From Mobula hypostoma (Eukaryota), in NCBI RefSeq assembly GCF_963921235.1, contig NC_086097.1, forward strand, positions 169,386,001-169,450,000: a stretch of 64,000 bases of DNA, written 5' to 3'. Below the pieces are notes generated by a model. The model did no database searches. It saw only the letters and a list, made by a program, of their open reading frames with translations, and was not told the origin of the DNA. This document shows, piece after piece, positions 15,640-44,919 of the stretch (the first letter of the stretch is position 1; each line of letters begins with the position of its first letter). The position numbers and the translations under genes are program-made.

Positions 15640-15833
15640 TCAGGTTCTCTTTTTTTTTCTGCAAGTGATGGGGTTGGGGACTGTTAATATCACTTTTTTT
15701 TTTGCAAGTGATGGGGTTGGGGACTGTTAATGTCACTTTTTTTTAAAGCAAGTTACAGGGTTGGGGACTATTATTGTTATTGGGTTTTTTTCTCTGCGAG
15801 TAACGGGGTTGGGGACTGTAGCTGTTTTTTTTC
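15640..15833 (+). repeat. Imperfect tandem repeat of about 45 bp (Tn-GCAAGTGATGGGGTTGGGGACTGTTAAT), 4 units; diverged units continue at about 21755-21850
   Basis: Units visible directly in the sequence. Confidence 0.85.
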
Positions 15834-16190
15834 TTTCTTTCTTTTTAAATCTTTTTATTGAGTAAGTATACAAAAAAGGTAAGCCATATAAACATTAATA
15901 CAATGTTAAAGTATAATAAAATTCCAAAAGATAACAATACCAAAAAGAAAATACTACAAACAATGTAATTTAAGCATAAGAAACCAAGATAACATAATAG
16001 TATACTAGATTTTATATATATCAATGGAAAAAAAGAAAAAAAAAACCCCAAAAAAAAACCCACCGTGCAACTAACTAAAAGCAAAACAAAGCAATGGGCT
16101 AACTTGAAACCAAACAGAGTTAAACTTAAAATCACGTCCTCAATCCCGACCTCCATTAAAACAGTGAAAAAAAAACAAGAAGGGTAAATA

Positions 16191-16887
16191 TTACATTAAA
16201 TGAAAATATCGAATAAAAGGTCCCCAAATCTGTTCAAATTTAAATGAAGAATCATAAAGGTTACTTCTAATTTTCTCCAGATTCAAACATAAAATCGTCT
16301 GAGAAAACCAAAAAAAGGTAGTTGGAGCATTAAGCTCTTTCCAATGTTGTAAAATACATCTTTTCGCCATTAAAGTAAGAAATGCAATCATTCTACGGGC
16401 TGAAGGGGAAAGATTACTAGAAATTTTAGGTAGTCCAAAGATAGCAGTAATAGGGTGAGGAGAGATATCTATATTTAATACCTTAGAAATAATATTGAAA
16501 ATATCTCTCCAAAAAGTTTCCAAAGTAGGGCAAGACCAAAACATATGAGTTAAAGAGGCTATCTGCCCCGAACATCTATCACAGAAAGGATTAATATGCG
16601 AGTAAAAACGCGCTAACTTATCTTTGGACATATGTGCTCTATGAACCACTTTAAATTGAATTAGGGAATGTTTAGCACAAATAGAGGAAGTATTAACTAA
16701 TTGTAAAATCTGCCCCCAATCCTCCACAGAAATGGTAAGCCCCAATTCCTGTTCCCAATCTACCCTAATCTTATCAAATGGAGCTTTCCTAAGTTTCATA
16801 ATAATATTATAAATCATAGCCGATGCACCTTTCTGACATGGATTAAGGTTAATTATCGAATCTAAAATATATATAGGAGGAAGCATT
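16191..16887 (-). CDS. L1 ORF2 C-terminal part (Cys-rich CDRC...HMFWSC), displaced by the inversion
   Basis: QFKVVHRAH, CDRC, LTHMFWSCP, W..F ending; open to the stop at 16191. Confidence 0.88.
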
Positions 16888-17047
16888 CCATAGGACTTCC
16901 GGTAGCGCTCATGGAGTGAAGTCGCGTTCTTGACTCGCTCCATTACCTCTGAGTTTTTTTTTCTCTATGGTCAGCTACACTTTAATTAACCATTAAGGCA
17001 TCAATTTTTACAATACTTTGAATTAAACTGAATTCTCTGACAATTGG

Positions 17048-17947
17048 ATGATACTTAGATCTGCTATGTCTAAGAACGGGAAAAACGGCAAGGATGGTAA
17101 ACCTCCGGTTAAACCGAAAGCTACGGATCTCCCTCCGACTGAATCACCGGTGACTTTGAAAGCGATATCGGAGTTAATTCAGAGGGAAATTTCAACCTCT
17201 GTTAGGGAGATGATTCGTACGGAAATTGCAGGCTTTGTTAAAGACCTGATTCATACGGAAATCTCAACTAATTTCCAGAAAATTGCCGATTTAATTGATA
17301 AGATGCAAACATGTATTGCGGAACATCAGTCGGCTATATCTGATCTTCAAAAATTCGCGCAACAAAGTGAGCTTAAGATGGGGAAAATCGAAGAAACAAT
17401 TAATGTAATGAAGAAGAAACTTGACTTTTTGACTTTTAAAAACTCTGACTTGGAATCTAGAATGCGACGGCAGAATTTACGAATGATTGGCGTGAGGGAA
17501 GCCGTTGAAGCTAACAACCCCATGAAATATTTCTCTCAGCTTTTAAAAGATGCATTCCCTACTGTATTTCCTGACCAACCACCGCTACTGGATCGTGTTC
17601 ACAGAATCCCATCATACTCGTCTAGGTCAGATAGACCTAGGCATGTTATCTTACGTTTTCATTACTTTCAAGACAAGGAGAGACTGTTTCGATTCGCTCG
17701 ATCTAAAGGTTTCATTGATTTTTCGGATCTTAGGTTCCGATTCGTGGAAGATTTCAGTAAACCAATCTGGGACCAACGGGTCCGTTACAGATCCGTGATG
17801 TCGGAATTCTATAAGATGGATTTAAGACCAGCGCTGCTGTACCCTGCACGTCTAAGGATTCGCATGTTAGATGGAGCCCTTCGTTTTTTTGATTCTCCAT
17901 CGGATGTCCAGAGTTATCTGGATCAACTTTCATCTTCAACATCTTAA
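17048..17947 (+). CDS. L1 ORF1p (coiled coil, RRM, CTD), intact, 299 aa
   Basis: DLESRMRRQNLRMIGV, LDRVHRI, PRHVILRFHYFQDKE, EDFS, LLYPARLRI. Confidence 0.92.
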   Translation: MILRSAMSKNGKNGKDGKPPVKPKATDLPPTESPVTLKAISELIQREISTSVREMIRTEIAGFVKDLIHTEISTNFQKIADLIDKMQTCIAEHQSAISDLQKFAQQSELKMGKIEETINVMKKKLDFLTFKNSDLESRMRRQNLRMIGVREAVEANNPMKYFSQLLKDAFPTVFPDQPPLLDRVHRIPSYSSRSDRPRHVILRFHYFQDKERLFRFARSKGFIDFSDLRFRFVEDFSKPIWDQRVRYRSVMSEFYKMDLRPALLYPARLRIRMLDGALRFFDSPSDVQSYLDQLSSSTS

Positions 17948-18669
17948 TTGCCTTTTTTTTAATTTTCTCCGTTGATCGGAGGCTGTGAATTGGTTGGTTT
18001 TAACTTTTCTGTGCCCTATTTGGGCAGAAAAGTTTACTTTTGATTTCTTAATATGGCTGCTAAACTTTCTTTTTAACTGCGTCATTTCTTTCTTTTCCCA
18101 GGGGATTCTGGGTGGTTACTTCCCTTTTGTCATCTTACGTATTTCCTGTGCGGCCTTAAATTTTGTAGTTTTTTTTTAAATTTTATTCTGTTTTGCTTTT
18201 TATAATCACTTTATGTTAATAATCCTATTTTTTTTTGTTGCTGTGTCTATTCATGAGTTTGAGGTTTATTGTGGTTTTTTTCAATATATATTTTCCGGCT
18301 TTTGTTCTGTTCTGTGTGTATTCTAATTGAGCTAACTTTTTTTTACTTATTTTTTTACTGTTTTACAATTAGCTGATCCTTTTCATATTTATACCTTTTT
18401 TTTAGGGAGCGTATACCGGAAGTCATGGGGGTAGTTTTAGCGCTTGCTTCTTTCTGGCGGGTCTGCTTTAGATTTTGCCTTGGGGTCTTGGGGTGGCGGG
18501 TGGTGGGAGGGGCTTCACGTTTTAGTTTGTTTTTCTTTGGGCTATATACATTATTGAAGTACTGGTTGCGTCCTTTTCCCCGGTATCTTTTGTATGTTCT
18601 GTTTCCTCTCCGGGTTTGTGGGTCGCGCCTATTGTCAATCCTCCTTGTTGTGGGTTGACTTTAGGATTT

Positions 18670-21600
18670 ATGGAGTCTATTATTAATTTTGTCTCCTGGA
18701 ATACTAATGGTCTTAATCATCCTATTAAAAGAAAAAAAGTTTTTAAAGTGTTCCGGAGACTTAAAGCACAAATTTTATTTTTACAAGAGACCCATGTACG
18801 GAGGGGGGACAGACTACGTTTTTTCAAATTCTGGAAGGGTCAACAATTTCATTCGAACTCCAATGCTAAGATTCGAGGCGTCTCTATTTTTATAGATTCC
18901 TCAGTTACTTTTATACAACAGGATATTATCTCTGATCCGAATGGTAAATTTTTATTGGTTAGTGGTTTACTATTTAATAAAAAAAGTAGTTTTGGTTAAT
19001 GTTTATGCTCCTAATATGGATTGTCCGGAATTTTATAAATCATTGTTTGATCAGTTTCCGAATTTGAACGAGTTTTCATTGATTTGGGGCGGAGATCTTA
19101 ATACCTGTTTATCTCCAGCTTTGGACCGTTCGGCTCCTTTACGGACTTTACCTAATAAATCTGCAAATTTGATTAATTTTTTCCTTTCTGATTCTGGGTC
19201 GACGGACATTTGGCGTTTTCTGCATCCTCAGGAAAAAGATTTTTCCTTTTTTTCACATGTTCATCATTCCTATTCAAGAATTGATTATTTTTTTATTGAT
19301 TCTCGTCTCATTCCTTCAGTGATTAAATGTGATTATGATTCTATAACCATTTCGGATCATGCTCCACTTAAGCTTTCTATTAAAATTATGGCCAATATAC
19401 CAAACAATAGACAATGGCGTTTTAATTCGCTGTTGCTTCAGGACTCGGATTTTGTTAATTTTATGAATGATCAGATTGAGCTTTTTTTTACAATTAACCA
19501 TACAGAAGATATTTCGGTTAACACTCTTTGGGACACTTTTAAAGCCTATATTCGGGGTCAGATTATTTCGTATTCCGTTGCTTTGAGGAAGAAACAGAAG
19601 CAGGAGGAGATGGCAATTGTGGACAAGATTAAAGAAATTGATAAGAAATATGTTATGGCTCCTTCTGAGGAGCTATACAAACAAAGAACTGAACTTCAAA
19701 TGGAACACAGTTTACTACTCTCGTCCTCGATTGTAAACCAATTAAAGAAAACAAGAAGTGATTTTTATGTTCACAGTGATAAAATTGGCAAGCTGCTGGC
19801 TAATCAATTGAAATCTAATTATGTTAAATCTCAAATCAATCAGATTTATAACCAAAATGATCGATTGATATTGAATCATGTGGGGATTAATCAAACCTTT
19901 TGTGATTTTTATTCTTCTTTATATCAATCAGAGTCTCCTCGAGATTCTAAATATATGAATGATTTTTTAGATAAGTTAGACTTCCCTCAGATTTCACAGG
20001 ATATGTCTTCTTTATTAGATACTTCCATTACAATGGATGAGATTAAGAATGTTATTTTTTCTATGAATCTGGGGAAAGCTCCTGGCCCTGATGGGTTTAC
20101 CGTTGAATTTTATAAATGTTTTGCTTCTTTATTGATTCCTTGGCTCTATAAGGTTTTTGAGGCTTCTTTGAAACTTGGTAAACTTCCGGAATCTTTTAAT
20201 AGAGCATCAATTTCTTTAATACTAAAGAAGGATAAAGACCCTGCTCAATGTGCATCTTATAGACCAATATCTTTATTAAATGTTGATTCTAAAGTTTTTT
20301 CTAAGTTATTAGCAAATAGACTAGAAAAAGTACTTCCTTCTATTATTTCGGAAGACCAAACGGGTTTTATTAAAGGTCGTTACTCTTTTTATAATATTCG
20401 TACATTGTTAAATATCGTTTATACTCCCTCACAAAATGTTCCTGAGTCTGTTATTTCTTTAGATGCCGAGAAAGCTTTTGATAGAGTAGAATGGCCTTAT
20501 TTATTTAAGGTGCTTGAAATGTTTAATTTTAGCTTGAAATTTATATCCTGGATTAAACTGTTATATCACTCCCCTGTAGCCTCGGTTCGTACTAACTCTT
20601 TAAACTCACCTTTTTTTCCTCTCTTTCGTGGTACTCGACAAGGCTGTCCTCTTAGTCCCCTATTATTTGATATTGCATTAGAACCTCTTGCAATTGCTAT
20701 TCGAGAATCTTCAAATATTACTGGGATAACTCGGGGATTAAAGTCCCATAAATTATCACTCTATGCTGATGATTTACTTTTATATATTTCTAATCCTGAG
20801 AGATCTATTCCTGCTGTTTTAGAGTTATTAGCACAATTTGGTCTTTTCTCAGGTTATAAATTAAATCTTAGTAAGAGTGAACTTTTTCCGATTAATAAAC
20901 ATCTTCCCTTATATTATAAATTTCCATTTAAATTGATTAATAATTACCTTTCATATCTTGGGATTAAAATTACTTGTAAACATAAAGATTTATTTAAGAC
21001 TAACTTTTTACCATTAATAGACCATATTACTCAACTTTCATCTAAATGGTTTCCCTTATATTTAACTTTGATTGGTCGTATTAATGCAGTTAAGATGTTT
21101 TTTTTGCCAAAATTTTTATATGTGTTTCAGGCATTACCAATTTTCGTTCCTAAATCTTTTTTTGATAAAGTCGACTCTAAAATTTCTTCATTTATTTGGC
21201 AGAATAAGAATCCGAGACTGGGTAAAATACATTTACAGAAAGCTAAGAGAGATGGAGGTTTAGCATTACCTAACTTTAGATTTTATTATTGGGCTATTAA
21301 TATTCGACATATGAAATTTTGGTTACTTGACCGGGATATACTATCTATTCCTAAATGGGTAGCATTGGAATTACAATCTGTTCAGGGTTATACACTTGGT
21401 TCTATTTTAGGTTCATCTCTTCCTTTTGATTCGAAACGCCTTAAGCAGGTCTCTAACCCGATCGTTAAATATGCTTTGCGTATTTGGTTTCAATTCAGAA
21501 AATTTTTTGATCTCAATCAATTCGGGTTAGCGATTCCTATTTTAGGTAACATATTTTTTCCTCCCTCTTTTACGGATCGCGCTTTTCAAACTTGGAAGAC

Positions 21601-21754
21601 TAAGGGTATTTTACGGTTTTTGGATTTATTTTTAGATGGTTCCCTTATGTCTTTTGAACAATTATCTAATAAATATAACTTATCAAGAATACATTTTTTT
21701 AGATATTTACAAGTTAGAAATTTCCTAAGTACTATACTTTCTTCCTTTCCAATG
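18670..21754 (+). pseudogene. L1 ORF2p, endonuclease plus RT; one +1 frameshift in the A7 run at 18979-18985; truncated by the inversion
   Basis: SWNTNGL, LQETH, NVYAPN, GGDLN, SRIDYF, SDHAP; APGPDG, YRPISLLNVD, LDAEKAFD, RQGCPLSP, YADD. Confidence 0.92.
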
Positions 21755-21995
21755 TTTTTTTTCCAGCGAGTGACTGGGTCAGGAACTGTTAAGTGTCACT
21801 TTTTTTATGTCAGCGATGGGATCAAGGATTATTATTGTCCCTGTCATTTTTCTTACTGTTCGGCGAGCATTTTTGGGGTCAGCAAGTTCTGTTTCTTTTC
21901 TTTTCCATGCCGGGGGGGGTGGGGGTTGTTGATGTCCTTTATTTCATCAACACCCAAGGTTTTTCTGTATTTAATAGCTATCTATAGTATATAAA

Positions 21996-31085: not shown

Positions 31086-31502
31086 CTAAAGAAAGAAAGT
31101 AAACAGTTCTCAGATATATTTCCAATGCAATTTGAACTAAATAATATTCTCTGAAAGCTATACCACTACACAATCTATCCACACTCTGCATCAAACACAT
31201 CATAGCACACCTGTGACAGAACCTGCAAGTTTTAGATTGGCCTCTGCACACCCCTTGGAACCCACAGACCAAAACATCAACAATTCCTTTCCCCCCCACA
31301 CCTCCCTATAGATGCTGCTTGACCTGCTGAGTTCACCTAGCAGATTATTTGTGAACTGGTGGAACCAACTCATCCACAATCCCATACAGATTAAAGTTTT
31401 CACTGGAGGTCGTTACACCGAGGATACTGGAAGACAGAAGGGGGCGGGGGGGCGACGATGAGCAAGGAAAGGATGCTTTAAGTACAGGAGACCCCGGGGG
31501 AT

Positions 31503-32141
31503 GTGCCTCTTGTAAAAAGGTTCACCCTCTTGGAAGCTGTCAAGACAGAAGATGATGCCAGCCTGAGAGGCAGTCAGGTCTGCGAGTCAACAATTGGTGC
31601 TGAAGCAAAGCCGAGGAGACAGACATCAGGCAGAGCCTTGGTAATAGGGGACTCCACAGTGAGAGGTACAGAAAGGGGTTTCTGTGGCAACAGGCGAAAT
31701 TTAAGGATGGTGTGTTGCCTCCCTGGTGCCGGGATCCAAGATGTCACGAACCCATTGCAGGGAATCCTCAAGAGTGAAGGTGAACATCCGGAAGTGGTGG
31801 TGCATGTCGGCACAAATGACGTGGGGAAGAAGAGGAAAGACATTCTACAGCGTGACTTCAGAGAACTCGGAAGAAGGTTGAAAAGCAGGCCTTCCAGGGT
31901 GGTTATCTCCAGTTTGCTTCCAGTTCCCCGTGCTGGACTGGTCAAGAACAGGGAGATAATGGATCTGAATGTGTGGCTGAGGAACTGGTGCAGGAAGCAA
32001 GGATTTACATTCTTGGACCACTGGGGTATGTTTCGGGGAAAGGATGAATTGTACAAAAGGGACAGGTTGCACCTCAATAAGCGGGGCACCAGCATTCTGG
32101 CAGGCAGGTTTGCCTCTGCAACACGGGTGTGTTTAAACTAA
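31503..32141 (+). pseudogene. CR1 ORF1 SGNH/GDSL esterase domain, 5'-truncated
   Basis: VIGDS, CLPGA, VHVGTND, DRLHLN blocks. Confidence 0.88.
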
Positions 32142-34064
32142 GTAGTGGGGGGGAGGGGACGAACTGGAAATATAAAGATGGAGATAAAGGGAAAGTGAGA
32201 ATAAGAAAAGTTAAGAAAGACAGCAGAATCAACAGAGCAGGAAGCTCAAGAAGGGATCGTACAGTATGGCCAAGTGATATAGGAATTGATATGGGAGGTG
32301 AGGGGAGTAATGAATTAAAAGTATTGTATATGAATGCACGGAGTATAAGAAATAAAGTGGATGAGCTTGAGGCACAGTTGGAAATTGGTAAGTATGATGT
32401 TGTGGGAATAAGAGAGACATGGCTTCAAATGGACAGGGCCTGGGAAATGAATATTCAAGGGTATACGTCCTATCAAAAGGACAGACTGATATGCAGAAGG
32501 GGTGGGGTGGCTCCGTTGGTGAGGAATGATATTCAGTCCCTTGCGAGGGGGGACATAGAATCAAGAGACGTAGAGTCAGTATGGATAGAACTGAGAAATT
32601 CTAAGGGTAGAAAGACCCTAATGGGAGTTATCTACAGGCCCCCAAACAGTAGTCTGGATGTAGGCTGTAAGTTGAATCAAGAGTTAAAATTGGCATGTCA
32701 CAAAGGTAATGCTACAGTTGTTATGGGGGATTTCAACATGCAGGTAGACTGGAGGAATCAGGTTGGTACTGGACCCAAGAAAGGGAGTTTGTGGAGTCCC
32801 TCCGAGATGGATTCTTAGAACAGCTTGTACTGGAGCCTACCAGAGAGAACGCAATTCTAGATTTAGTGTTGTGCAATGAACCGGATTTGATCAGGGACCT
32901 CGAGGTAAAGGAGCCATTAGGAGGTAGTGACCATAACATGATAAGTTTTAATCTACAATTTGAGAGGGAGAAGGGAAACTCGGAAGTGTCAGTATTACAG
33001 TTGAACAAAGGGAACTATGGTGCTATGAGGGGGGAGCTGGCCAAGGTTCAATGGAACAATACCCTAGCAGGGATGACAGTGGAACAGCAATGGCAAGTGC
33101 TTCCGGGAATAATGCGGAAGGTGCAGGATCAGTTCATCCCAAAGAGGAAGAAAGATCCTAAGGGGAGCAAGGGGAGGCCGTGGCTGACAAGGGAAGTAAT
33201 GGAAGAAGTGTAACATAGCAAAGACGAGTGGGAAACCGGAGCATTGGGAAACAAAGAGCAACAGAAGGTAACTAAAAAGGCAATACGCGGTGGAAAAATG
33301 AGGTACGAAGGTAAATTAGCCAAGAATATAAAGGAGGATAGTAAAAACTTCTTTAGGTATGTGAAAAGGAAAAAAATATTTAAGACCAAAATTGGGCCCT
33401 TGAAGACAGAAACTGGTGAATTTATTATGGGAAACAAGGAAATGGCAGACCAGTTGAACAGGTATTTTGGATCTGTCTTCACGAGGGAAGACACAAACAA
33501 TCTACCAGATATAATAGTGGCCAAAGGACCTAGGGTAATGGATGAACTGGAGGAAATTTATATTAGGCAGGAAATGGTGTTGGATAGACTGTTGGGTCTG
33601 AAGGCTGATAAGTCCCTAGGACCAGATGGCCTGCATCCCAGGGTACTTAAGGAGGTGGCTTTAGAAATCGTGGACGCATTGGTAATCATTTTCCAATGTT
33701 CCATAGATTCAGGATCAGTTCCTGTGGATTGGAGGGTGGCTAATGTTGTCCCTCTCTTCAAGAAGGGAGGGAGAGAGAAAATAGGGAATTATAGACCAGT
33801 TAGCTTGACGTCGGTGGTGGGAAAGATGCTGGAGTCAATTATAAAAGATGAAATTACAACACATCTGGATAGCAGTGACAGGATCAGTCCAAGTCAGCAT
33901 GGATTTATGAAAGGGAAATGTGCTTGACTAATCTTCTGGAATCTTTTGAGGATGTAACTATGAAAATGGACAAGGGAGGGCCAGTGGATGTAGTGGGCAA
34001 AATTAGGGCACATGGTATTGGGGGCAGAGTACTGACATGAATTGAAAATTGGCTGGCTGACAGA

Positions 34065-34480
34065 GTTACAAAATACACGTGGACTAAGGTGTTAACTGTC
34101 CTGTGCTATCACCAGTGGGATCATCAGTTGATCTGCCACCTGTCTTCAGGAGTTTTGGCCCGCTTATGATCAAGACTCCCTCGAGGTGGTGGGCCAGCAG
34201 TGCTAAAGCACCACCTCCCACTGGTGAGCTTAAAAACTTGGTATCTGCCTCTATCAGAGTTGTTGGTCACTTCCATCCAACAGATAGTCTACTCTTCAGG
34301 TGTCTATGCAACTACTGAAGGGTTTGCAAGATATGTATACACTGTCTGACTATCTGCCCCTCTGGACATACTTGGTCCACACCCATGCTGATCCTTTCTC
34401 TGCTGCCTCAGCTACAGCCCTGCTGGTTGACTTGATCTCTCTTCTAGTGAAGCCAAGGTCACGCAGCACTTCTGGAGAGC
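34065..34480 (-). mobile_element. 5'-truncated fragment of a probable HERO-clade (restriction-like endonuclease) non-LTR element inside the CR1
   Basis: TSD GACAGA (34059-34064, 34481-34486); minus frame VLRDLGFTRREIKSTSRAVAEAAEKGSAWVWTK...stop, then a 3' UTR. Confidence 0.72.
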
Positions 34481-35604
34481 GACAGAAAACAAAGAGTAGC
34501 GATTAATGGGTCCCTTTAGGAATGGCCGGCGGTGACCAGGGGGTACCGCAGGGTTCAGTGCTGGGACTGCAGCTGTTTACAATATATACTAATGATTTAG
34601 ATGAGGGAATTAAAAGTAACATTAGCAAATTTGCTGATGACACAAAGCTGGGTTGCAGTGTGAAATGTGAGGAGGATGTTATGAGAATGCAGGGTGACTT
34701 GGACAGGCTGGGTGAGTGGGCAGATGCATGGCAGATGCAGTTTAATGTGGATAAATGTGAGGTTATCCACTTTGGTGGTAAGAACAGGAAGGCAGATTAT
34801 TATCTAAATGGAGTCAAGTTCGGAAAAGGGGAAGTACAACGAGATCTAGGTGTTCTTGTATATCAGACACTGAAAGCAAGCATGCAAGTACAGCAGGCCG
34901 TGAAGAAAGCTAATGGCATGCTGGCCTTCATAACAAGGGGAATTGAGTATAAGAGCAAAGAGGTCCTTCTGCAGCTATACAGGGCCCTGGTGAGACCACA
35001 CCTGGAGTACTGTGTGCAGTTTTGGTCTCCAAATTTGAGGAAGGACATTCTTGCTATTGAGGGAGTGCAGCGTAGGTTCACAAGGTTAATTCCCGGGGTG
35101 GCGAGACTGTCATATGTCGAAAGATTGGAGCGACTGGGCTTGTGTACTCTGGAATTTAGATGGCTGAGAGGGGATCTTATTGCAACATATAAGATTATTA
35201 AGGGATTGGACACGCTGGAGGCAGGAGGCATGTTCACACTGATGGGTGAGACCAGAACCAGAGGCCACAGTTTAAGAATAAGGGGTAAGCCATCTAGAAC
35301 GGAGTTGAGGAAAAACTTCTTCACCCAGAGAGTGGTGGATATATGGAATGCTTTGCCCCAGAAGGCTGTGGAGGCCAAGTCTCTGGATGCTTTCGAGAAA
35401 GAGATGGATAGAGCTCTTAAAGATAACGGAATCAAAGGTTATGGGGATAAGGCAGGAACTGGATACTGATTGTGGATGATCAGCCATGATCACAGTGAAT
35501 GGCGGTGCTGGCTCGAAGGGCCAAATGGCCTCCTCCTGCACCTATTGTCTATCGGATTTAAACCGAAGTTAATTATTCAAGACTCAAAAGCAAACGTCAC
35601 TGAC

Positions 35605-35732: not shown

Positions 35733-37213
35733 CTGCATGAAAATGAATACTTCAATGCATCATTACGTATCATGAACAAACAGCTGCTTCAGTGCAATAT
35801 TGTTTGTTGGTCATATGTTTCAAACAATAAACAAGTGAAATGTTTATCAGGCAATACAGAACTACTTAGCAATTAACCTAGTGAAAACAGATTATTTGAC
35901 AATTTAAAACAAGTCAACAATTTCAAGTTTCCAAATTAAATTTAATAAAACTGCTTTAGAAAGCAGTTTAATGTTAATATCAAGTTTTGTGTAATTTTCC
36001 CACTAGTCAAATGGAGAATACAGTTAGCACTACAAAAACCTTCAGCCAGTTAAACATGTCTCAATTAGATACATACGCAAATGAGGAACAGCTGAATTTC
36101 CCTCAATATCCAAAAGTCCAATCTCCAGAGCTGCAGAAGTTCTCAAGTCTGGCTGCTTTCTACATCTTGAAGGTCAGCTACTCATTGGGTCTCTTTGACC
36201 TTGTATTGGAATTTTTAATACTTATTCTAAGCAAGCTTTATTCAGTCTAGCAACAGCATCTATTTCGTAATAGCAAGGTGTTTAATTAATCCACCAAAAG
36301 AACATTGGTAGAATGATGAAAGTTATTCAACTTGATTCTCAAGTGGTCTCAGGACTACTTGGCATGGATAATAAATGTTGCTCTGCCAGTACTACCTACC
36401 TTCCAAGAAGCAATCGAAAAGCTTAAGCCTCATCTCCTGAACGCTTTTTATTGAAACAGGATTCAATTTCTCTGACCCAGAATCCTGTTCACCATTGAAT
36501 TAAATCACAGCTAATCTCAATATCAACTCTATCAAAGAAATATCAGTAACTGAATAAGTAACGGTTTTAAAATTACCAACCCATCTACAACTCCAAACAG
36601 TAGTTTGGATGTGAGAACTCCATACTTTTTCTTTTTAAGCGTTTCTAAGTATCACTCCTGAATAATTTTAGATGACATTTATCTGTTATGAATAATCCTC
36701 CCAGAAGAAACTTTTTCTCTTTGCAAAACTTATTTCAATTGCTCAATTCGGTTACTTCTAAATCTTCTGCACAGACAGTCCCTGTTATGCCCTATTGGGC
36801 AATAGAAATCACCATTACAGAATTCACAAATCACTATTCAAAAACTTGAGATCAGGAATAAAATTCGCTCACAGAATTTCTAGAGAAAAAGTAGCTTTTT
36901 TCCATTCTATTCATGCACAGATGATGTGGCTTTGCATTACAAAAAAATTGTGATATTGATTGTTTTCTAAGAACCAAACCCCTCCACTGTAACCTTGGGT
37001 CATTTGTACAAAAATCTCATTGGTATTTTCTAGTGTATCTGCATATGACCTTCCAAAGTGCGTACTTCTTGGAGTCCATGCAATGCAGTCCAACCAGAGC
37101 ACAATGCACCTGGGACACAATTATCACCTATTTGTACCAAATTTTAAAAATTTTATCACATGCATATTACAGTATTTTTAAAATGCATAAAGAAAAGCTT
37201 AGTTTTATTTTAC

Positions 37214-37340
37214 CTGACCGAAGTGTGTCACCACTGCACAACTGTCTGCCTTCTTCCTGGATTTCTGACAAATCAGTAGGTTGAATTAAAGGTACTGGTG
37301 TTCCGTGTTTTGGTGATGTTATGGAATATCCAAACGAAGG
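37214..37340 (-). CDS. CEP192: CEP192 exon (PSFGYSITSPKHGTPVPLIQPTDLS...TLRS)
   Basis: Acceptor aaatttcctag|CCT, donor CAG|gtaaaa; 127 bp, phase 0 to 1; completes KR|PSFGY. Confidence 0.92.
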
Positions 37341-37345
37341 CTAGG

Positions 37346-37760
37346 AAATTTGGTAAATTGGTTTATTATTGTCATATGTATTATAGTACAGAGAAAAAAT
37401 ATTTTGTATGCCACCCATACAGATCACTGCATCACATCAATACAAAGGAAAAGCAACAACATAATGCAGAATAAGTGCTATAGTTACAAAACAGCAGTGC
37501 AGACATACAAATAAGATGCAGGCTATGTCAAGCACATTGTGAGGAGAACAGCCCAGTTTATTGTACAATGGAACCACTCATTATGACAGCAGGATAGAAG
37601 CTGTCCTTAAGACCGGTGGTATGTGCTTTCAGTCTTCTATATCTTCTGCCCAATGGGAAGGAGGGAAAGAAAAGAATATTTAGGGTACTTGACTACCTCC
37701 CTGAAGCAGTGAGAGCTGGTTTCATGATGTATTGCGCTATGTACACAACTTAAAGCAGTT
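37346..37760 (-). mobile_element. 3' end of a Rex1/Babar-like LINE next to a CEP192 acceptor
   Basis: Minus RLKDSFYP remnant, AT-rich UTR, tail gacaataataaaccaatttaccaaattt. Confidence 0.7.
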
Positions 37761-40700
37761 GAATTTCATGAAATTTTACCAAAATACATCTTTAGCAACA
37801 TATATAAACAGGTGTTCAAATGTGTCCTTTTAATTTAGACAATACCCTCCCACTATTTCACAAGGATGTCTTGTTTACCTAAATTATCCAAGTAATCAAA
37901 GTTCTACTTAAAAAAGAAACAGCCAGAAAGCTATCTAGAAACTCCCCTACCCCCATCTCCCTTGAAGGCAAATCTCCAAAATTGAAAAGAATGCAAAATA
38001 CCACCCACAGTCAAAACATTGAGAAAAGAATGCCATAAAAAACACCAAACAAATGTTTAAAAAAAACAGCCGTTTGCAAAACACTTTGAAAGGTGAGATC
38101 TTGGAAAGTGAAACAGAGTACAATCTTACTAATATTTCAGGAAGAAAAAACAACCACCGAATCAGATTCTTAACTATTTTCAAAAACGAACAATTGAAAA
38201 TAATAAGATAAAATAATAAAGGAAAAAAACTTTAACATAAAAGCACGATAAACATTCATACTCCAAAACAAAGTACGAATATTATCAAACCAAGGGCAAA
38301 ATTCTTCAAACTTAAGTCCAGACCTATAAACTGGTTATTAACTTATAAAGCAAATGATTACAGACATGAAGAAACAGTAAATTTATTAAACATTGATCCT
38401 CAAGGAATTGATGAGCTTCATCCACGGATTTAAACCATTTATGTGATTTAACAGGCAGAATAACCCCTAGGCGAAGTGGAAATAGCAGAGTTGGTTGGAA
38501 CTTTCTTTGATAGAGCTCGGACATCACTGGTTTAAAAAGCGATCTTTCTCGCATTACCTCAGTACTGTAGACAAAACTTGAGGTCTCCGTGTTCAATAAC
38601 CCCTTTCCGACGGGCAATTCAAATTAAATGCTCCTTGCTATGCACATAGTGGAATTGGAGTATAACAGGTCGAGGCTTCAACTCTTTAGGAGGTTTTGCT
38701 CTTAAAGTCTGATGAACACGGTCAGGTATAGGGGGAGTAGAAAAAACTTCAGAGCCGAACACATCCATTAAAAATTGAGAAAAGAATTTAGTAAGGTCAC
38801 CAGTCAATGTCTTTACGGAGTCCTGTTATTCGCAAATTCTGTCTACGACTGCGACTTTCCAGGTCAATAATCTTAACTTTATACCGTTCCAATGTTTGAG
38901 TGGTCGAAGTGAATTTCTTTTCCAACAAATCCAGTCTATGATCTCTCTGTCTACCAGCTTCATCGAGTTCGGAAATTTGTTGTTGTTGTTTTTCACTCTC
39001 ACGCTTAAGTGCTCCCAGTCTACCTTTGATCTCCTTTAACAATACTTCCAAAGTAGAAAATCTTTTATCGAATTTATCATCCAGGAGCTTCGACATAGCC
39101 TCCAAAGTGAGCTGAGACTGTTTAGGATCACCTTCTCTCCTTCCATTTCCATTACCCGCTTCCTTGCTTTCGGCTGATGCCTTTTTCCCCTCTGGTATCC
39201 ATTTCCAGCGATTAAAAATCAAGGTCCAAGCATATAAAAGTGCTATAAACACTTCAATATAGATAGTAAAAGGGTGGTAAAAAGATTGAAAAATGAACAG
39301 AGCAAAGCCAAAATGCAACTTACTCCATCTAGTGCCCCAAGAGAAGTCTTTTGTGGGTGGTGGGTGGGGCTATTTTTAGTTTAGTTTTTTTTCACCTGGG
39401 CTGATCTGAAACTACAAATATGTCTGAATTGTCGTAACTTCTGTTTCCCCTTTAAACCTTTTTCCCTCTTCCTGATTCATCAATTTCCTATGCAGTAAGG
39501 TTAACCCTTTGCATACCATATGGCTTATTCAAGTAAAATGGATATTATTATTAACTTTGTTTCATGGAATACGAATGGTTTGAATCATTCGATTAAACAG
39601 AAGAAGATTTTTAAAGTTTTTCATAGATTGAATGCTCAAATTATCTTTGCCCAGGAAAGTCATGTGAGGAAGGAGGATAATCAGCGTTTTTTTTGGTTTT
39701 GGAAAAACTAACAATTTCATTCCAACTCATAAGCTAAGGTGTAAGGAGTCCATTTTTATAGTCTCTTCAATTTCATCTGTTCACTATGAAACAATCTCAG
39801 ACCTGAATGGTAGATTTCTGTTAATTACTGGTTTACTTTATAACTAAAAAGTTGTCATGGTTAATATCTATGCACCAAATACTGACTATCCTGAATTCTT
39901 TAAGCATTTATTTGCATCTCTTCCTAATTTAAATGACTATCTGTTGATAACAGGCTGAGATTTTAACTGTTGCCTGAATCAGTTGATGGACAGGTCTGTG
40001 CCCAATCAGGTACTTCCAAACAAAACTGCTATTTTTATTAATTGCTTTTTAGCTGCCTCCAGAATTTTAGAAGTTTGGTGGTTTTAAGATCCTAACGATA
40101 AAGAGTTCTCACTCTTTTCTCATGTATATCATAATTACTCTAGAATTGATAACCTTTTTTTTTTAATCCACTCTCGATTAGTTTCGTCTGTTACAGCTTG
40201 TGAGTACGATGCAAATGCCATCTCTGATCATGCGCCCTGAAAACTATCAATCAAATTAACTGATGTAACTTTCAGTGCTAGACAATGGCGGTACAATTCT
40301 ACTCTGCTTCAGGATTTAAACTTTGTTAACTTAATTAAAGAACAGATTGTCTTTTTCTTTTCAACTAACTTTACCGAAGAAATTTCCAGTGAGATTATGG
40401 GATACTTTTAAAGTATATATCCATGAGCAAATTATTTCATATTCTGCTGGATTGAAAAAATGAATTAATAATAAAACATGTACATTGGTTGATAAGATTA
40501 AAGAAATTGATAAAAAGTATTCTGCTGCTCCTAATCTGGAGTTTTATAAAAAGAGAGTTGAACTTCAGATGCAACAGTTTGTTATTAACATCCCCAACTG
40601 AAGATCAATTACTTAAAACTAAGAGTCAATTTTATATAATTACATGGTGATAAATCTGGTAAATTACTGCCCAACCAATTGAAAGCTGCTTCAGCTAACC

Positions 40701-41515
40701 GTCAGATTATTAAAGTTCGTAAACCGGATGGTATTTTGACGGTTGACCATGAAATTAATAAATCTTTTCAAGAATTCTATACCTCTTTATACCAATCAGA
40801 ATTTCCTGACAATTCTACCATAATGCATGAATTTTTAAGGAAATTTAATATTCCAAAATTACCACAATGAATGTTTAGCACGAGACGGACCCATTACGGA
40901 AGAAGAAATAAAGAAAGCAATTTATTCGATGAATTCTGGTAAAGCACCCGGTCTGGATGGGTATACAGTAGAATTTTTTAAATCTGTTTTCAAATCTACT
41001 TTCTCCTTGGTTATGTAGAATCTTATTTGTAGAGAAATTACCACAATCCTTTGATGAAGCATCTATTTCTTTAATTCCTAAAAAAGATAAAGACCCCACT
41101 GAATGTGCTTCATATAGACCTATATCCTTGTTCAATGTGGACTCCAAGATCTTTTCCAAAATATTAGCTATTAGATTGGAAAATATATTGCCACAAATTG
41201 TCTCTGACGACCAGAGAGGGTTTATTAAAAATCATTACTCGTATTTTAATGTTAGGAGGTTAATGAACATTGTATATACTTCTTCATCTCAAACTCCAGA
41301 ATGTGTTATTTTGCTTGACGCCGAGAAGGTGTTTGATAGAGTTGAATGGAAATATTTATTTAACATTCTTGAGAAATTTAACTTTAGCCCAAAATTCATA
41401 TCGTGGATTAAATTGACATATCATATATATACCTTTGGCTTCTGTACTTACCAATAATCAGGGCTGTCCTTTAAGCCCTTTACTGTATGACATTGCCTTG
41501 GAGCCCTTGGCAATC

Positions 41516-41827
41516 ATAGTCATACTTTATTGATCCCGGGGGAAACTGGTTTTCGTTACAGTTGCATCATAAATAATAAATAGTAATATGTAAATTATGC
41601 CAGTAAATTATCAAATAAATCCAGGACCAGCCTATCGACTCAGGGTGACTGACCCTCCAAGGGAGGAGCTGTAAAGTTTGATGGCCACAGGCAGGAATGA
41701 CTTCCTATGACGCTCTGTGCTGCATCTTAGAGGAATGAGTCTCTGGCTGAATGTACTCCTGTGCCCACCCAGTACATTATGTAGTGGATGGGAAACATTG
41801 ACCAAGATGGCATGCAACTTAGACAGC
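41516..41827 (-). mobile_element. Short 3' fragment of a Rex1/Babar-like LINE inside L1 ORF2
   Basis: SHPLH...RHRKSFLPVAIKLY; tail caataaagtatgactatg; interrupts L1 LEPLAI|ALHDSPNI. Confidence 0.8.
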
Positions 41828-41956
41828 ATCGCTCTTCATGATTCACCCAATATATCTGGCATTATTCGTGGGAATGGGACGCATAAGGTATCACTATATG
41901 CAGATGACCTGTTACTATATATCGCTAACTCAGAGAAATCCATCCCTGCAGTAATA

Positions 41957-42881
41957 CGCAACACACATAAAAGTTGCTGGTGAATGCAGCAGGCCAGGCA
42001 GCATCTCTAGGAAGAGGTACAGTCGACGTTTCGGGCCGAGACCCTTCGTCAGGACGAACTGAAGAAGAGCTGGTAAGAGATTTGGAAGTGGGAGGGGGAG
42101 ATCCAAAATGATAGGAGAAGACAGGAGGGGGAGGGATGGAGCCAAGAGCTGGACAGCTGATTGGCAAAAGGGATATGAGAGGATCATGGGACGGGAGGCC
42201 GAGGGAGAAACAAAAGCGACCCTTCGCCTGTGAGTCGGCTGGGGTGATATACTGCGTCCGGTGCTCCCGATGCGGCCTTCTATATATTGGCGAGACCCGA
42301 CGCAGACTGGGAGACCGCTTTGCTGAACACCTACGCTCTGTCCGCCAGAGAAAGCAGGATCTCCCAGTGGCCATACATTTTAATTCCACATCCCATTCCG
42401 ATGTGTCTATCCACAGCCTCCTCTACTGTAAAGATGAAGCCACACTCAGGTTAGAGGAACACCACCTTATATTCTGTCTGGGTAGCCTCCAACCTGATGG
42501 CATGAACACTGATTTCTCTAACTTCTGTTAATGCCACACCTCCCCCTCGTACCCATCTGTTATTGCCCATCCTCTGGGCTCCCCCCCCCTTCTTTCTCCC
42601 AGACCTCCTGTCCCATGATCCTCTCATATCCCTTTTGCCAATCACCTGTCCAGCTCTTGGCTCCATCCCTCCCCCTCCTGTCTTCTCCTATCATTTTGGA
42701 TCTCCCCATCCCCCTCCCACTTCCAACTCTCTTACCAGCTCTTCTTTCAGTTTGTCCTGACAAAGGGTCTCCGCCCAAAACATCGACTGTACCTCTTCCT
42801 ATAGATGTTGCCTGGCCTGCTGCGTTCACCAGCAACTTTTGTGTGTTGCTTGAAATTCCAGCATCTGCAGATTTCCTCCTG
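41957..42881 (+). mobile_element. 5'-truncated PLE (GIY-YIG C-terminus plus pLTR) with an inverted pLTR at about 41957-42215
   Basis: 12-bp TSD CCTGCAGTAATA (41945-41956, 42882-42893); GVIYCVRCSRCGLLYIGETRRRLGDRFAEH...RLEE...QPDGMN. Confidence 0.93.
42020..42061 (-). ncRNA. Minimal type I hammerhead ribozyme motif, intact core, in a PLE pLTR
   Basis: Minus: cagttcGTC-CTGACGA-A-GGGT-CTCG-GCCC-GAA-ACGT-C-GACtg; stem I GUC/GAC, 4-bp stem II, palindromic ACGU in place of helix III. Confidence 0.72.
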
Positions 42882-44919
42882 CCTGCAGTAATATGACTTT
42901 TCTGGTTATAAATTGAATCTTAATAAGAGTGTGCTTTTACCATTAAATATGCAAGTTCCAATCTATAGACAATCACCATTTAGACTGGTTACCGATTATT
43001 TTACTTATTTGGGTGTTAAAGTTACTAAGAAGCACAAGGATCTATTTAAAGCTAACTTTTTACCCTTAATTGATCATGTTAAACAACTGCCTACTAAAGA
43101 GTCCCCATTGTCCTTATCATTGATTGGTTGAATTAATGCTATTAAGATGATTATTTTACCTAAATTTCTGAATCTATTTCAGACAGTACTAATCTTCATC
43201 TCTCAATCCTTTTTTGATACTATTGATTCTAAAATTTCTTCATACATATGGCAGAATAAAAATCCTAGGTTAAGTAAGAAATACTTACAGAAATCAATAA
43301 AGTATGGCAGTTTGGCATTGCTGAACTTTAGATTCTATTATTGGGCAATTAATATCCAATATCTAACATTCTGGACACAAGATTTGGATGAAATTCAATG
43401 TTCACGATGGGCGAACCTCGAGTGCGAGTCTGTACAGGGGTTCTCATTGGCTTCTGTTTTAGGGGGTTCGCTTCCCTTTGCACTTACTAAACTGAATAAA
43501 CAAAACGATTAATCCAAAAACTAAACATACAATACGAATATGGTTTCAATTTCGTAAATTTTTTGGATTGAATAAATTTATCCTATCAAGTCCAATTATA
43601 TCCAATTTTTTCTTCCAACCATCCAGGACTGATCAAGCTTTTATTTTAAAATGGAAAAGGAAGGGATGTTTTCGTGATTTATTTATGGATAATTGTCTCA
43701 TGACTTTTGAAGTTGTCCAATAAATATAATTTGCCTAGATCACATTTTTTCAGGTATTTACAGATCAGAAACTTTTTGAATGTTATTTTACCTACTTTTC
43801 CGATACTGCATCAAACTGAAATTACAGAAAAAAATTTAGGTTTAAACGCCTATCAGAAGAGTTTAATTAGCAATTATTTATGATTTATTTACAAAAATAC
43901 GTCTAGGTACATCTGATAAAATTAAGAATATCTGATAAAATTAAGAATGAATGGGAAAGAGAACTTCAGGTATCTTTACCTATAGAGAAATGGGAGAAAA
44001 TTCTCCAACTAGTTAACACCTCTTCAATGTGTGCTGGACATGCTTTGATACAATTTAAGGTGGTTCATAGGGCCCATATATCTAAGGATAAGTTAGCTCG
44101 TTTTTATTGCCATATAAATCCTATCTGTGACAGATGTAATTCTGAGGTAGCTTCCTTGACACATATGTTCTGGTCTTGCCCTCTTTTGGAAAAATATTGG
44201 AAAGATATTTTTGATATTATTTCATTAGTTCTGCGTCTTGATTTACAACCTCATCCTATCACTACAATTTTTGGATTACCAATGATGGACTCTAGTCATT
44301 TATCCCCTTCAGCTTGCCCTTTGATTGCATTTGTTACATTAACAACCAGCAGATCCATTTTATTTAAATGGAAAGATTCTAATCCCCCTACTACATTTCA
44401 ATGGTTTTCCCAAACCGTAACATGTTTAAGTTAGGAGGGGTACTATCCATCCTCTTCAGTTAAATTTGAAGAAACTTGGAGGCCATTTATTCAACATTTT
44501 CATATGATGTAAGCTGACCTTTTCCGAATCCTTTTCAATAACTTTTTTGTATGGAGGAGCGGAGTTAATGACAAATAATGATTTTAACCGATGAAACATG
44601 GCTGCCAGCCTTTGTTTTGTTGTGTTTTGGTTTTTTTTTTGCTGTTGTTTTTTAAAGTGTAAGGGGACTTTACTTTGTAAAAATTTTTTTGAATCTTTTT
44701 CATGTTCAGTTATTAAGAGATTGGGAGGCTTAAATTAAATTACATATATTACTCTGAGTCTGTGTCTGTATACGTTAACCGTTATTAATGTAATCCCGAT
44801 CTCTTTGTATCATTATCGTTATGTTTATCAATTCAAAACTTAATAAAAAAGATTGAAAAAGAAAAAGAGAAATAAAACTAGAATTAATGGCGATTGTAGC
44901 AGTTGAATATGGAACTAAC

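What the first reader, a model, noticed from the sequence alone, without database searches (positions are those of the whole stretch)
37910..44872. Second, independent full-length L1 with the same 5'-inversion architecture in the same gene
Seen: ORF1 and the 5'UTR are on minus and end at 39348 in sequence similar to the 5' end of the first L1 (gacttctc...gatggagtaagttgc vs ggacttccgg...catggagtgaagtcgc). ORF2 and the tail are on plus. The breakpoint is in the inter-ORF spacer: comparison with 18421-18545 shows the two sides are neighbouring spacer segments with roughly 30 nt lost. Inference: two of two L1s here, of different ages and breakpoints, are full-length inversions, so this may be a common integration mode for this lineage, perhaps because its U-rich RNA offers many internal priming sites for A-rich target overhangs. 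The TSD is not resolvable in the A-rich flanks.
Basis: partly seen in the sequence, partly recalled or inferred. Interest (0 to 1): 0.72.

Follow-up and report, generated by a model that had tools for sequence, protein, structure and literature searches.

The report
Front-flipped full-length L1 in CEP192 intron
An old, dead L1 jumping gene in a ray-like fish was pasted into an intron of the CEP192 gene whole but with its front quarter flipped, the known 'twin priming' accident of human L1 seen here in a distant vertebrate, and two such copies in one gene do not show that this is the lineage's usual way of inserting.

Summary
Observation confirmed. A decayed L1 fills a CEP192 intron: 37920-39348 (5'UTR, ORF1, most of the spacer) lies on minus and 39349-44862 (rest of spacer, ORF2, tail) on plus. 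The flipped part reaches the lineage's 5'-end motif. Its left edge is marked independently by a family contig and by a relative's apparent empty site. The two halves map about 31 nt apart on the neighbouring L1 and have decayed alike. Best reading: one twin-primed insertion (0.85). The neighbouring L1 (15834-21754) is a second, cleaner case. Not supported: the U-tract idea (the one testable priming site pairs no better than average) and 'common mode' (2 of 2, picked for being odd; no genome was held to count copies). No unflipped family copy was seen, so same-RNA origin is inferred. The scan earlier noted a twin-primed RTE LINE in this genome and twin-primed LINEs in other genomes. Known mechanism, new host lineage; full-length retention differs from most human cases.

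The parts
37908..37913 (+). L1 endonuclease-type site TT/AAAA at the left edge
   Evidence: read from sequence; consensus as in PMC2912911
37910..37921 (+). left copy of probable 12-nt target-site duplication AAAAAAGAAACA; its last 2 nt (CA) are probably shared with the L1 (priming microhomology)
   Evidence: single-copy contig of organism H fits up to 37921, multi-copy family contig of organism C fits from 37920
37920..39348 (-). inverted 5' segment, 1429 nt: 5'UTR, ORF1, about 465 nt of spacer
39322..39348 (-). 5'-end motif of this L1 lineage (GACTTC...ATGGAGT)
   Evidence: same motif at 16894(+) and at the 5' ends of L001 and L002
38385..39202 (-). ORF1 remnant, 3 frameshifts, 1 stop in 254 aligned codons (3' end approximate)
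39349..39537 (+). start of the non-inverted segment: last 189 nt of the spacer, beginning with a G-rich block
39538..44512 (+). ORF2 remnant (endonuclease, RT, C-terminal zinc region); 12 stops in 1244 aligned codons, at least 10 frame changes
41513..41827 (-). later 315-nt insertion of a very high-copy repeat with a (GACTAT)n-type tail; ATC shared at the ends
   Evidence: family contigs skip 41512>41828 in 3 of 4 runs; flanks; strand inferred from the tail
41957..42881 (.). later Penelope-like insertion with GIY-YIG remnant and inverted arms; exact 12-nt TSD at 41945-41956 and 42882-42893
44513..44862 (+). 3'UTR, AATAAA and short A-rich tail
   Evidence: tail resembles that of the first L1
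44863..44874 (+). right copy of probable TSD AAAAGAGAAATA (10/12, two transitions)
37341..44919 (-). host intron of CEP192 between consecutive exons (donor GTTAGT at 44919, acceptor AG at 37341); the L1 makes up about 92% of it
15823..21763 (.). companion young L1: inverted 16893-21754 (+, 4862 nt), non-inverted 16887-15834 (-, 1054 nt), 4-nt overlap AATG, 5 extra nt at the joint, 11/11 TSD TGTTTTTTTTC inside a 43-nt tandem repeat

Best explanation
One retrotransposition event by twin priming. (1) ORF2p nicked the lower strand at TT/AAAA and copied the RNA from its A-rich 3' end for about 4.3 kb, through ORF2 to a G-rich block in the spacer (end points shown by sequence; enzyme action inferred). 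(2) The upper strand was nicked about 12 nt away; its 3' end ...GAAACA paired by about 2 nt with the same RNA some 30 nt upstream of where the first copy stopped and primed a second cDNA (TSD probable; microhomology and 'same RNA' inferred). (3) The second cDNA ran 1.43 kb to the very 5' end of the RNA (shown by the motif). (4) The two cDNA ends were joined, fixing 5'UTR-ORF1 in reverse: every part present, but dead on arrival because the promoter faces away from ORF2 (inferred). (5) Neutral decay and two nested insertions followed (shown). That the flipped part is complete probably reflects processive copying by a short-5'UTR non-mammalian L1: lizard L1s either stop within 1 kb or tend to finish (PMC5389967, passage), an analogy not tested here. 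Two such copies in one gene are best read as chance plus selection of an odd window.
For: Geometry is that of twin priming: internal spacer point at the target, 5' end at the central joint. The halves are neighbours on the L1 map and do not overlap (31-nt gap; inverted end vs forward start unlike, p 0.6); spacer total about 655 nt against 722, 531 and 553 nt in the first L1, L001 and L002. Same decay: stops 1/254 vs 12/1244, P 0.30; displayed family contigs differ by about 10-20% over both halves. One TSD pair around the whole, at TT/AAAA; the inverted piece has no A-tail or TSD of its own. Organism H: a single-copy 1659-nt contig fits 37354-37921 and its other 1134 letters do not fit, as for an empty site (record 18). 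The companion L1 shows the same build with an exact TSD and no loss at the joint. Human parallels: 2-5 nt microhomology in about 70% of inverted L1 (PMC2912911); short internal deletion in 66% (10.1101/2024.08.27.596794).
Against: No unflipped copy of this family was seen: the joint 37920-to-39349 that full-length relatives should show is not among the 15 of 388 joints or 12 of 73 between-letter rows displayed. The central joint 39348/39349 is not bridged by any of the 32 displayed pieces (67,446 hidden). ORF1 of the two window L1s is only 27-44% identical while ORF2 is about 60%; the intact pair L001/L002 gives 53% and 62%, so the halves could come from different families. The TSD lies in A-rich DNA with two mismatches. 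The far side of organism H's contig was not seen. Stop counts fit 4-10% decay, somewhat more than half of H's 6.6-7.8% flank difference.
Confidence: 0.85

Rival explanations
1. Same event, two RNAs: the lower nick primed on the tail of one L1 RNA and the upper nick primed inside a second RNA of another L1 family, giving a chimera within one TSD.
For: ORF1 is more diverged from the first L1's ORF1 than ORF2 is from its ORF2; no colinear family copy seen; bridges made of two L1s are described in tumours (10.1101/2024.08.27.596794, passages).
Against: Independent RNAs would not stop within about 30 nt of each other on a 5.8-kb map (roughly 2-3% by chance, my estimate); fast ORF1 change between L1 families is common (own knowledge).
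Confidence: 0.07
2. Two separate insertions at different times: a 5'-truncated plus-strand L1 and a tail-less 5' fragment of another L1 in the opposite orientation.
For: The TSD is imperfect and A-rich; the map position of the inverted end is only modestly significant.
Against: The minus piece has no ORF2, tail or TSD of its own; its 5' end abuts the forward piece exactly; equal decay; complementary halves.
Confidence: 0.04
3. A normal full-length L1 whose first 1.43 kb was inverted later by DNA repair, or was mis-assembled.
For: The central joint is not bridged by a displayed contig.
Against: One break would have to fall exactly at the target/5'-end junction, in two elements; no inverted repeat pairs the two breakpoints among the 25 longest of 208 pairs shown; the left joint is held unchanged by a contig 37621-37948 (that run may be the assembly's source, and only 29 letters lie beyond 37919).
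Confidence: 0.04

Closest known systems
Twin-primed (5'-inverted) L1 insertions of human and chimpanzee (model of Ostertag and Kazazian 2001, not read; described in PMC2912911, PMC5668948, PMC12016303, 10.1101/2024.08.27.596794)
   Same: Inverted 5' part plus tailed 3' part within one TSD of 10-20 nt at TT/AAAA; short loss or overlap at the inversion point; about 2-nt match at the priming joint. Rates there: 30.9% of 2068, 18.2% of 1634, 18-22%.
   Different: Host is a cartilaginous fish (inferred from homologue names). The inverted part reaches the 5' end, whereas human cases are typically also 5'-deleted (median 5' end at 4.5 kb, inverted part 0.54 kb in tumours; 0.75 kb in germline). Sizes here: 1.43 kb inverted + 4.3 kb forward, and 4.86 + 1.05 kb in the companion.
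Non-mammalian vertebrate L1 with short 5'UTR (intact relatives L001, L002; Anolis L1 of PMC5389967)
   Same: 5'UTR about 150 nt, ORF1 about 290 aa, spacer 530-720 nt, ORF2 about 1270 aa, shared 5' motif; ORF2 47% identical to L001/L002.
   Different: L001 and L002 are colinear. In the passages seen, PMC5389967 reports truncation, not inversion.
De novo inserts of human L1, zebrafish ZfL2-1 and Nimb-2_DR in cultured cells (PMC4245944, passages)
   Same: Inversion goes with TSDs of 10-20 nt; one Nimb-2_DR inversion shows it is not confined to human L1.
   Different: There inversion was seen almost only for human L1 in human cells; here two germline cases sit in a non-mammalian L1 lineage.

Membership tests
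twin-primed 5'-inverted L1 insertion | 5' segment inverted, 3' segment forward with A-rich tail; internal point faces the target | tested here: met
twin-primed 5'-inverted L1 insertion | one TSD pair (about 10-20 nt) around both segments | tested here: inconclusive
   12 nt, 10/12, A-rich; left edge marked by two contigs. Exact 11/11 in the companion L1
twin-primed 5'-inverted L1 insertion | endonuclease site TT/AAAA at the tail-side nick | tested here: met
   CTACTT/AAAAAAG at 37904-37916
twin-primed 5'-inverted L1 insertion | segments adjacent on the RNA, with a short loss or overlap | tested here: met
   about 31 nt gap measured on a paralogous family; forward end firm, inverted end modest
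twin-primed 5'-inverted L1 insertion | 2-5 nt microhomology between target end and RNA | tested here: inconclusive
   CA at 37920-37921 is fitted by both the apparent empty-site contig and the family contig; their letters were not shown. 2 nt read directly in the companion
twin-primed 5'-inverted L1 insertion | both segments copied from one RNA (one family) | tested here: inconclusive
   equal decay but no colinear family copy displayed; ORF1/ORF2 divergence disparity
twin-primed 5'-inverted L1 insertion | microhomology at the inversion joint | not testable with these tools
   needs the family's own spacer sequence; no genome held
twin-primed 5'-inverted L1 insertion | empty site in an outgroup | tested here: inconclusive
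   organism H contig leaves the stretch at 37921 for 1134 unfitted letters; the 3' flank was not in the stretch laid
L1 clade | ORF1 with L1-type RNA-binding domain | tested here: met
   PF02994 E 1e-9 for the companion's ORF1; this ORF1 remnant matches it at E 1.6e-22 but two pieces scanned alone gave no PF02994 hit
L1 clade | ORF2 with N-terminal endonuclease, RT and C-terminal zinc region, closest to L1 ORF2p | tested here: met
   companion ORF2 vs human ORF2p E 7e-160, R2 1e-24; RVT_1 and zf-RVT hits; this ORF2 about 60% identical to the companion's

The most novel reading that the evidence does not exclude
In ray L1 lineages twin priming is a main fate of long reverse transcription: a large share (say over 40%) of full-length inserts are flipped and hence dead on arrival, primed from upper-strand ends that finish in ...AAACA on a UG of the RNA (seen in the companion, inferred here). 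Inversion rather than 5' truncation would then be the chief brake on L1 amplification in these genomes, and such copies would be missed or split by repeat annotation.
Probability: 0.12. Interest if true: 0.62.

Novelty: new member of a known kind. Interest (0 to 1): 0.34.

Why it matters
It extends twin priming, studied almost only in mammalian L1, to a cartilaginous-fish L1 lineage and shows the internally primed cDNA running to the RNA's 5' end, in two families and at two ages. I found no report of L1 5' inversion in sharks or rays in six answered literature searches (one search returned nothing relevant); subscription papers are largely missing and Kojima and Okada 2009 was not held. If the share proved high it would bear on whether inversion depends on element or host (raised in PMC4245944). 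As it stands it is two examples.

Tried and rejected
Genome-wide count: no genome held. Relatives of this ORF1 in metagenomes: 0 of 591 candidate stretches. With the companion's endonuclease: 26 loci from 396 candidates in metagenomes, of which only L001 and L002 carry a matching ORF1 and were used; 0 of 192 in prokaryote genomes and 0 of 19 in viral contigs. Read laying (4 of 24 listed runs, 36900-41900) was swamped by high-copy repeats and gave neither the colinear joint nor an inversion count; the tool states that contig depth is no copy number, so none is claimed. No RNA holder is on record; no evidence either way on expression. An overlap (duplication) at the inversion point: rejected, the two ends are unlike, although one scoring placed the last 60 nt of the inverted part on the downstream block without significance (p 0.47). 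U-tract priming: rejected for the companion, untestable for this copy. Dating by stop codons: too loose (4-10%). PMC4476161, PMC9719517, PMC12350158 and PMC3747384 (passages only) gave nothing on non-mammalian or full-length inversions. Look-alikes among earlier scan notes by sequence and in relatives: none; one word search gave 0.
Full report
Setting. The window holds exons of CEP192 on the minus strand (best named hit whale-shark CEP192-like, E 8e-29; exon map). An ORF1 piece matches a Hemitrygon akajei gene model at 76%, so the host is a ray-like cartilaginous fish (inference). Two L1-clade elements lie in its introns; BLAST of both against the rest of the window found no third (the three weak RT hits, 27-29% identity, are taken to be other LINE clades). 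No whole genome is held.

Anatomy. ORF1 reads on minus from 39202 to about 38385, ORF2 on plus from 39538 to 44512, followed by AATAAA and an A-rich tail to 44862. Two later insertions interrupt ORF2: 315 nt at 41513-41827, skipped by family contigs in 3 of 4 runs laid, and a Penelope-like piece at 41957-42881 with a GIY-YIG remnant and an exact 12-nt TSD. Without them the element is 1429 nt inverted plus about 4275 nt forward. It fills about 92% of the intron 37341-44919 and ends 45 nt from the splice donor.

Is it full length? Two intact colinear relatives from metagenome contigs, L001 and L002 (ORF2 47% identical to the companion's), begin with G[AG]CTTC...ATGG[AC]GT about 150 nt before ORF1. 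That motif occurs in the window only at 16894(+) and 39348(-) (pattern chosen after the fact). A family contig also begins at 39343 (record 15). So the flipped part reaches the 5' end within a few bases.

Are the halves neighbours? On the companion's spacer the forward half starts near 18492 (no shuffle reaches the score) and the inverted half ends near 18460 (two exact words on one diagonal, 0.001 of 5000 shuffles, and only in the last of 16 tiles; local alignment alone p 0.06-0.64). The gap is 31 nt on a different family, so its size is soft. The two ends do not resemble each other (p 0.6), which excludes an overlap. Decay is alike in both halves. Against: ORF1 is relatively more diverged from the companion than ORF2, and the colinear joint expected in family copies is not among the 15 of 388 joints displayed.

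Target site. After CTACTT comes AAAAAAGAAACA (37910-37921); after the tail, AAAAGAGAAATA (44863-44874), 10 of 12. In one search a multi-copy contig of organism C fits from exactly 37920, and a single-copy 1659-nt contig of organism H fits 37354-37921 and then carries 1134 letters that do not fit, the simplest reading being an empty site (its far side was outside the stretch laid). The 2-nt overlap of these fits, CA, is where the priming microhomology should be. A contig of organism A crosses 37621-37948 unchanged, but that run may be the assembly's source; no displayed piece (32 shown, 67,446 hidden) crosses the central joint.

The companion L1 (15823-21763) is young (ORF1 open, one frameshift in ORF2). 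Its inverted part is 4862 nt and its forward part 1054 nt, contiguous on L001's ORF2 with a 4-nt overlap, inside an exact 11-nt TSD in a 43-nt tandem repeat. Its primer end is also ...AAACA on a UG.

Mechanism. All this is what twin priming predicts, as described in PMC2912911 (parts 1-3 of 5 read), 10.1101/2024.08.27.596794 (passages and part 1 of section 4), PMC12016303 (passages and section 8) and PMC5668948 (passages and section 12). Shown: orientation, end points, 5' motif, target site. Inferred: order of nicks, one RNA, microhomology for this copy. What differs from human cases is completeness: human inverted copies are typically also 5'-deleted. Anolis L1s either stop early or tend to finish, about 40% complete (PMC5389967, passages); if ray L1s behave so, inverted copies that keep the 5' end need no special rule. 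Supplements of these papers were not read and may list full-length inverted human copies.

U-tract priming: the RNA is U-rich (52 runs of five or more U in the companion), but the companion's site pairs 5 of 11, the median for sites with a 2-nt end match, and 21 far better sites were not used. One site, so a weak test, but against. Common mode: untested. An unchecked scan note puts a flipped RTE family in this genome at about one in ten long copies; if true, inversion is ordinary here but not dominant.

Verdict. Real, correctly described, and most likely one twin-primed insertion: a known mechanism in a host lineage for which I found no report. Interest is modest unless a genome-wide count shows a high share.

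Noticed in passing
window 37920-37921 and 21753-21754: Both L1s seem to have been primed by an upper-strand end finishing in ...AAACA on a UG of the RNA (read directly for the companion, inferred for this copy); n = 2.
   Followed up: partly
window 15649-15833 and 21753-21870: The companion L1 sits in the T-run of one unit of a 43-nt tandem repeat whose units continue on both sides.
   Followed up: partly
window 16888-16892: Five extra bases (CCATA) between the forward part and the 5' motif of the companion L1, like the 5' extra nucleotides of full-length human L1.
   Followed up: no
window 18418-18547 and 37920-37964, 39349-39408: The inter-ORF spacer of both families has two successive G-run plus TTTAG-like blocks, the best kept non-coding part of the spacer; the inversion point lies between them. 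Function unknown.
   Followed up: partly
P0001 residues 186-258: A Hemitrygon akajei gene model named CatSper epsilon-like ends in 73 residues of this family's ORF1 (73-76% identity): an exonised L1 piece or an annotation artefact.
   Followed up: no
window 41957-42881: Penelope-like insertion with arms of about 260 nt, 91% complementary, around a GIY-YIG remnant: a possible long hairpin within CEP192 pre-mRNA.
   Followed up: partly
window 43911-43948; about 41440-41450; about 44430: Small changes after insertion in ORF2: exact 19-nt tandem duplication and two short deletions.
   Followed up: no
window 37374-37660: High-copy short repeat in the original part of the intron, present in all four runs laid.
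   Followed up: no
window 31482-35550: Long remnant of another LINE type on plus with an esterase-like first ORF by eye and an RT; not scanned.
   Followed up: no
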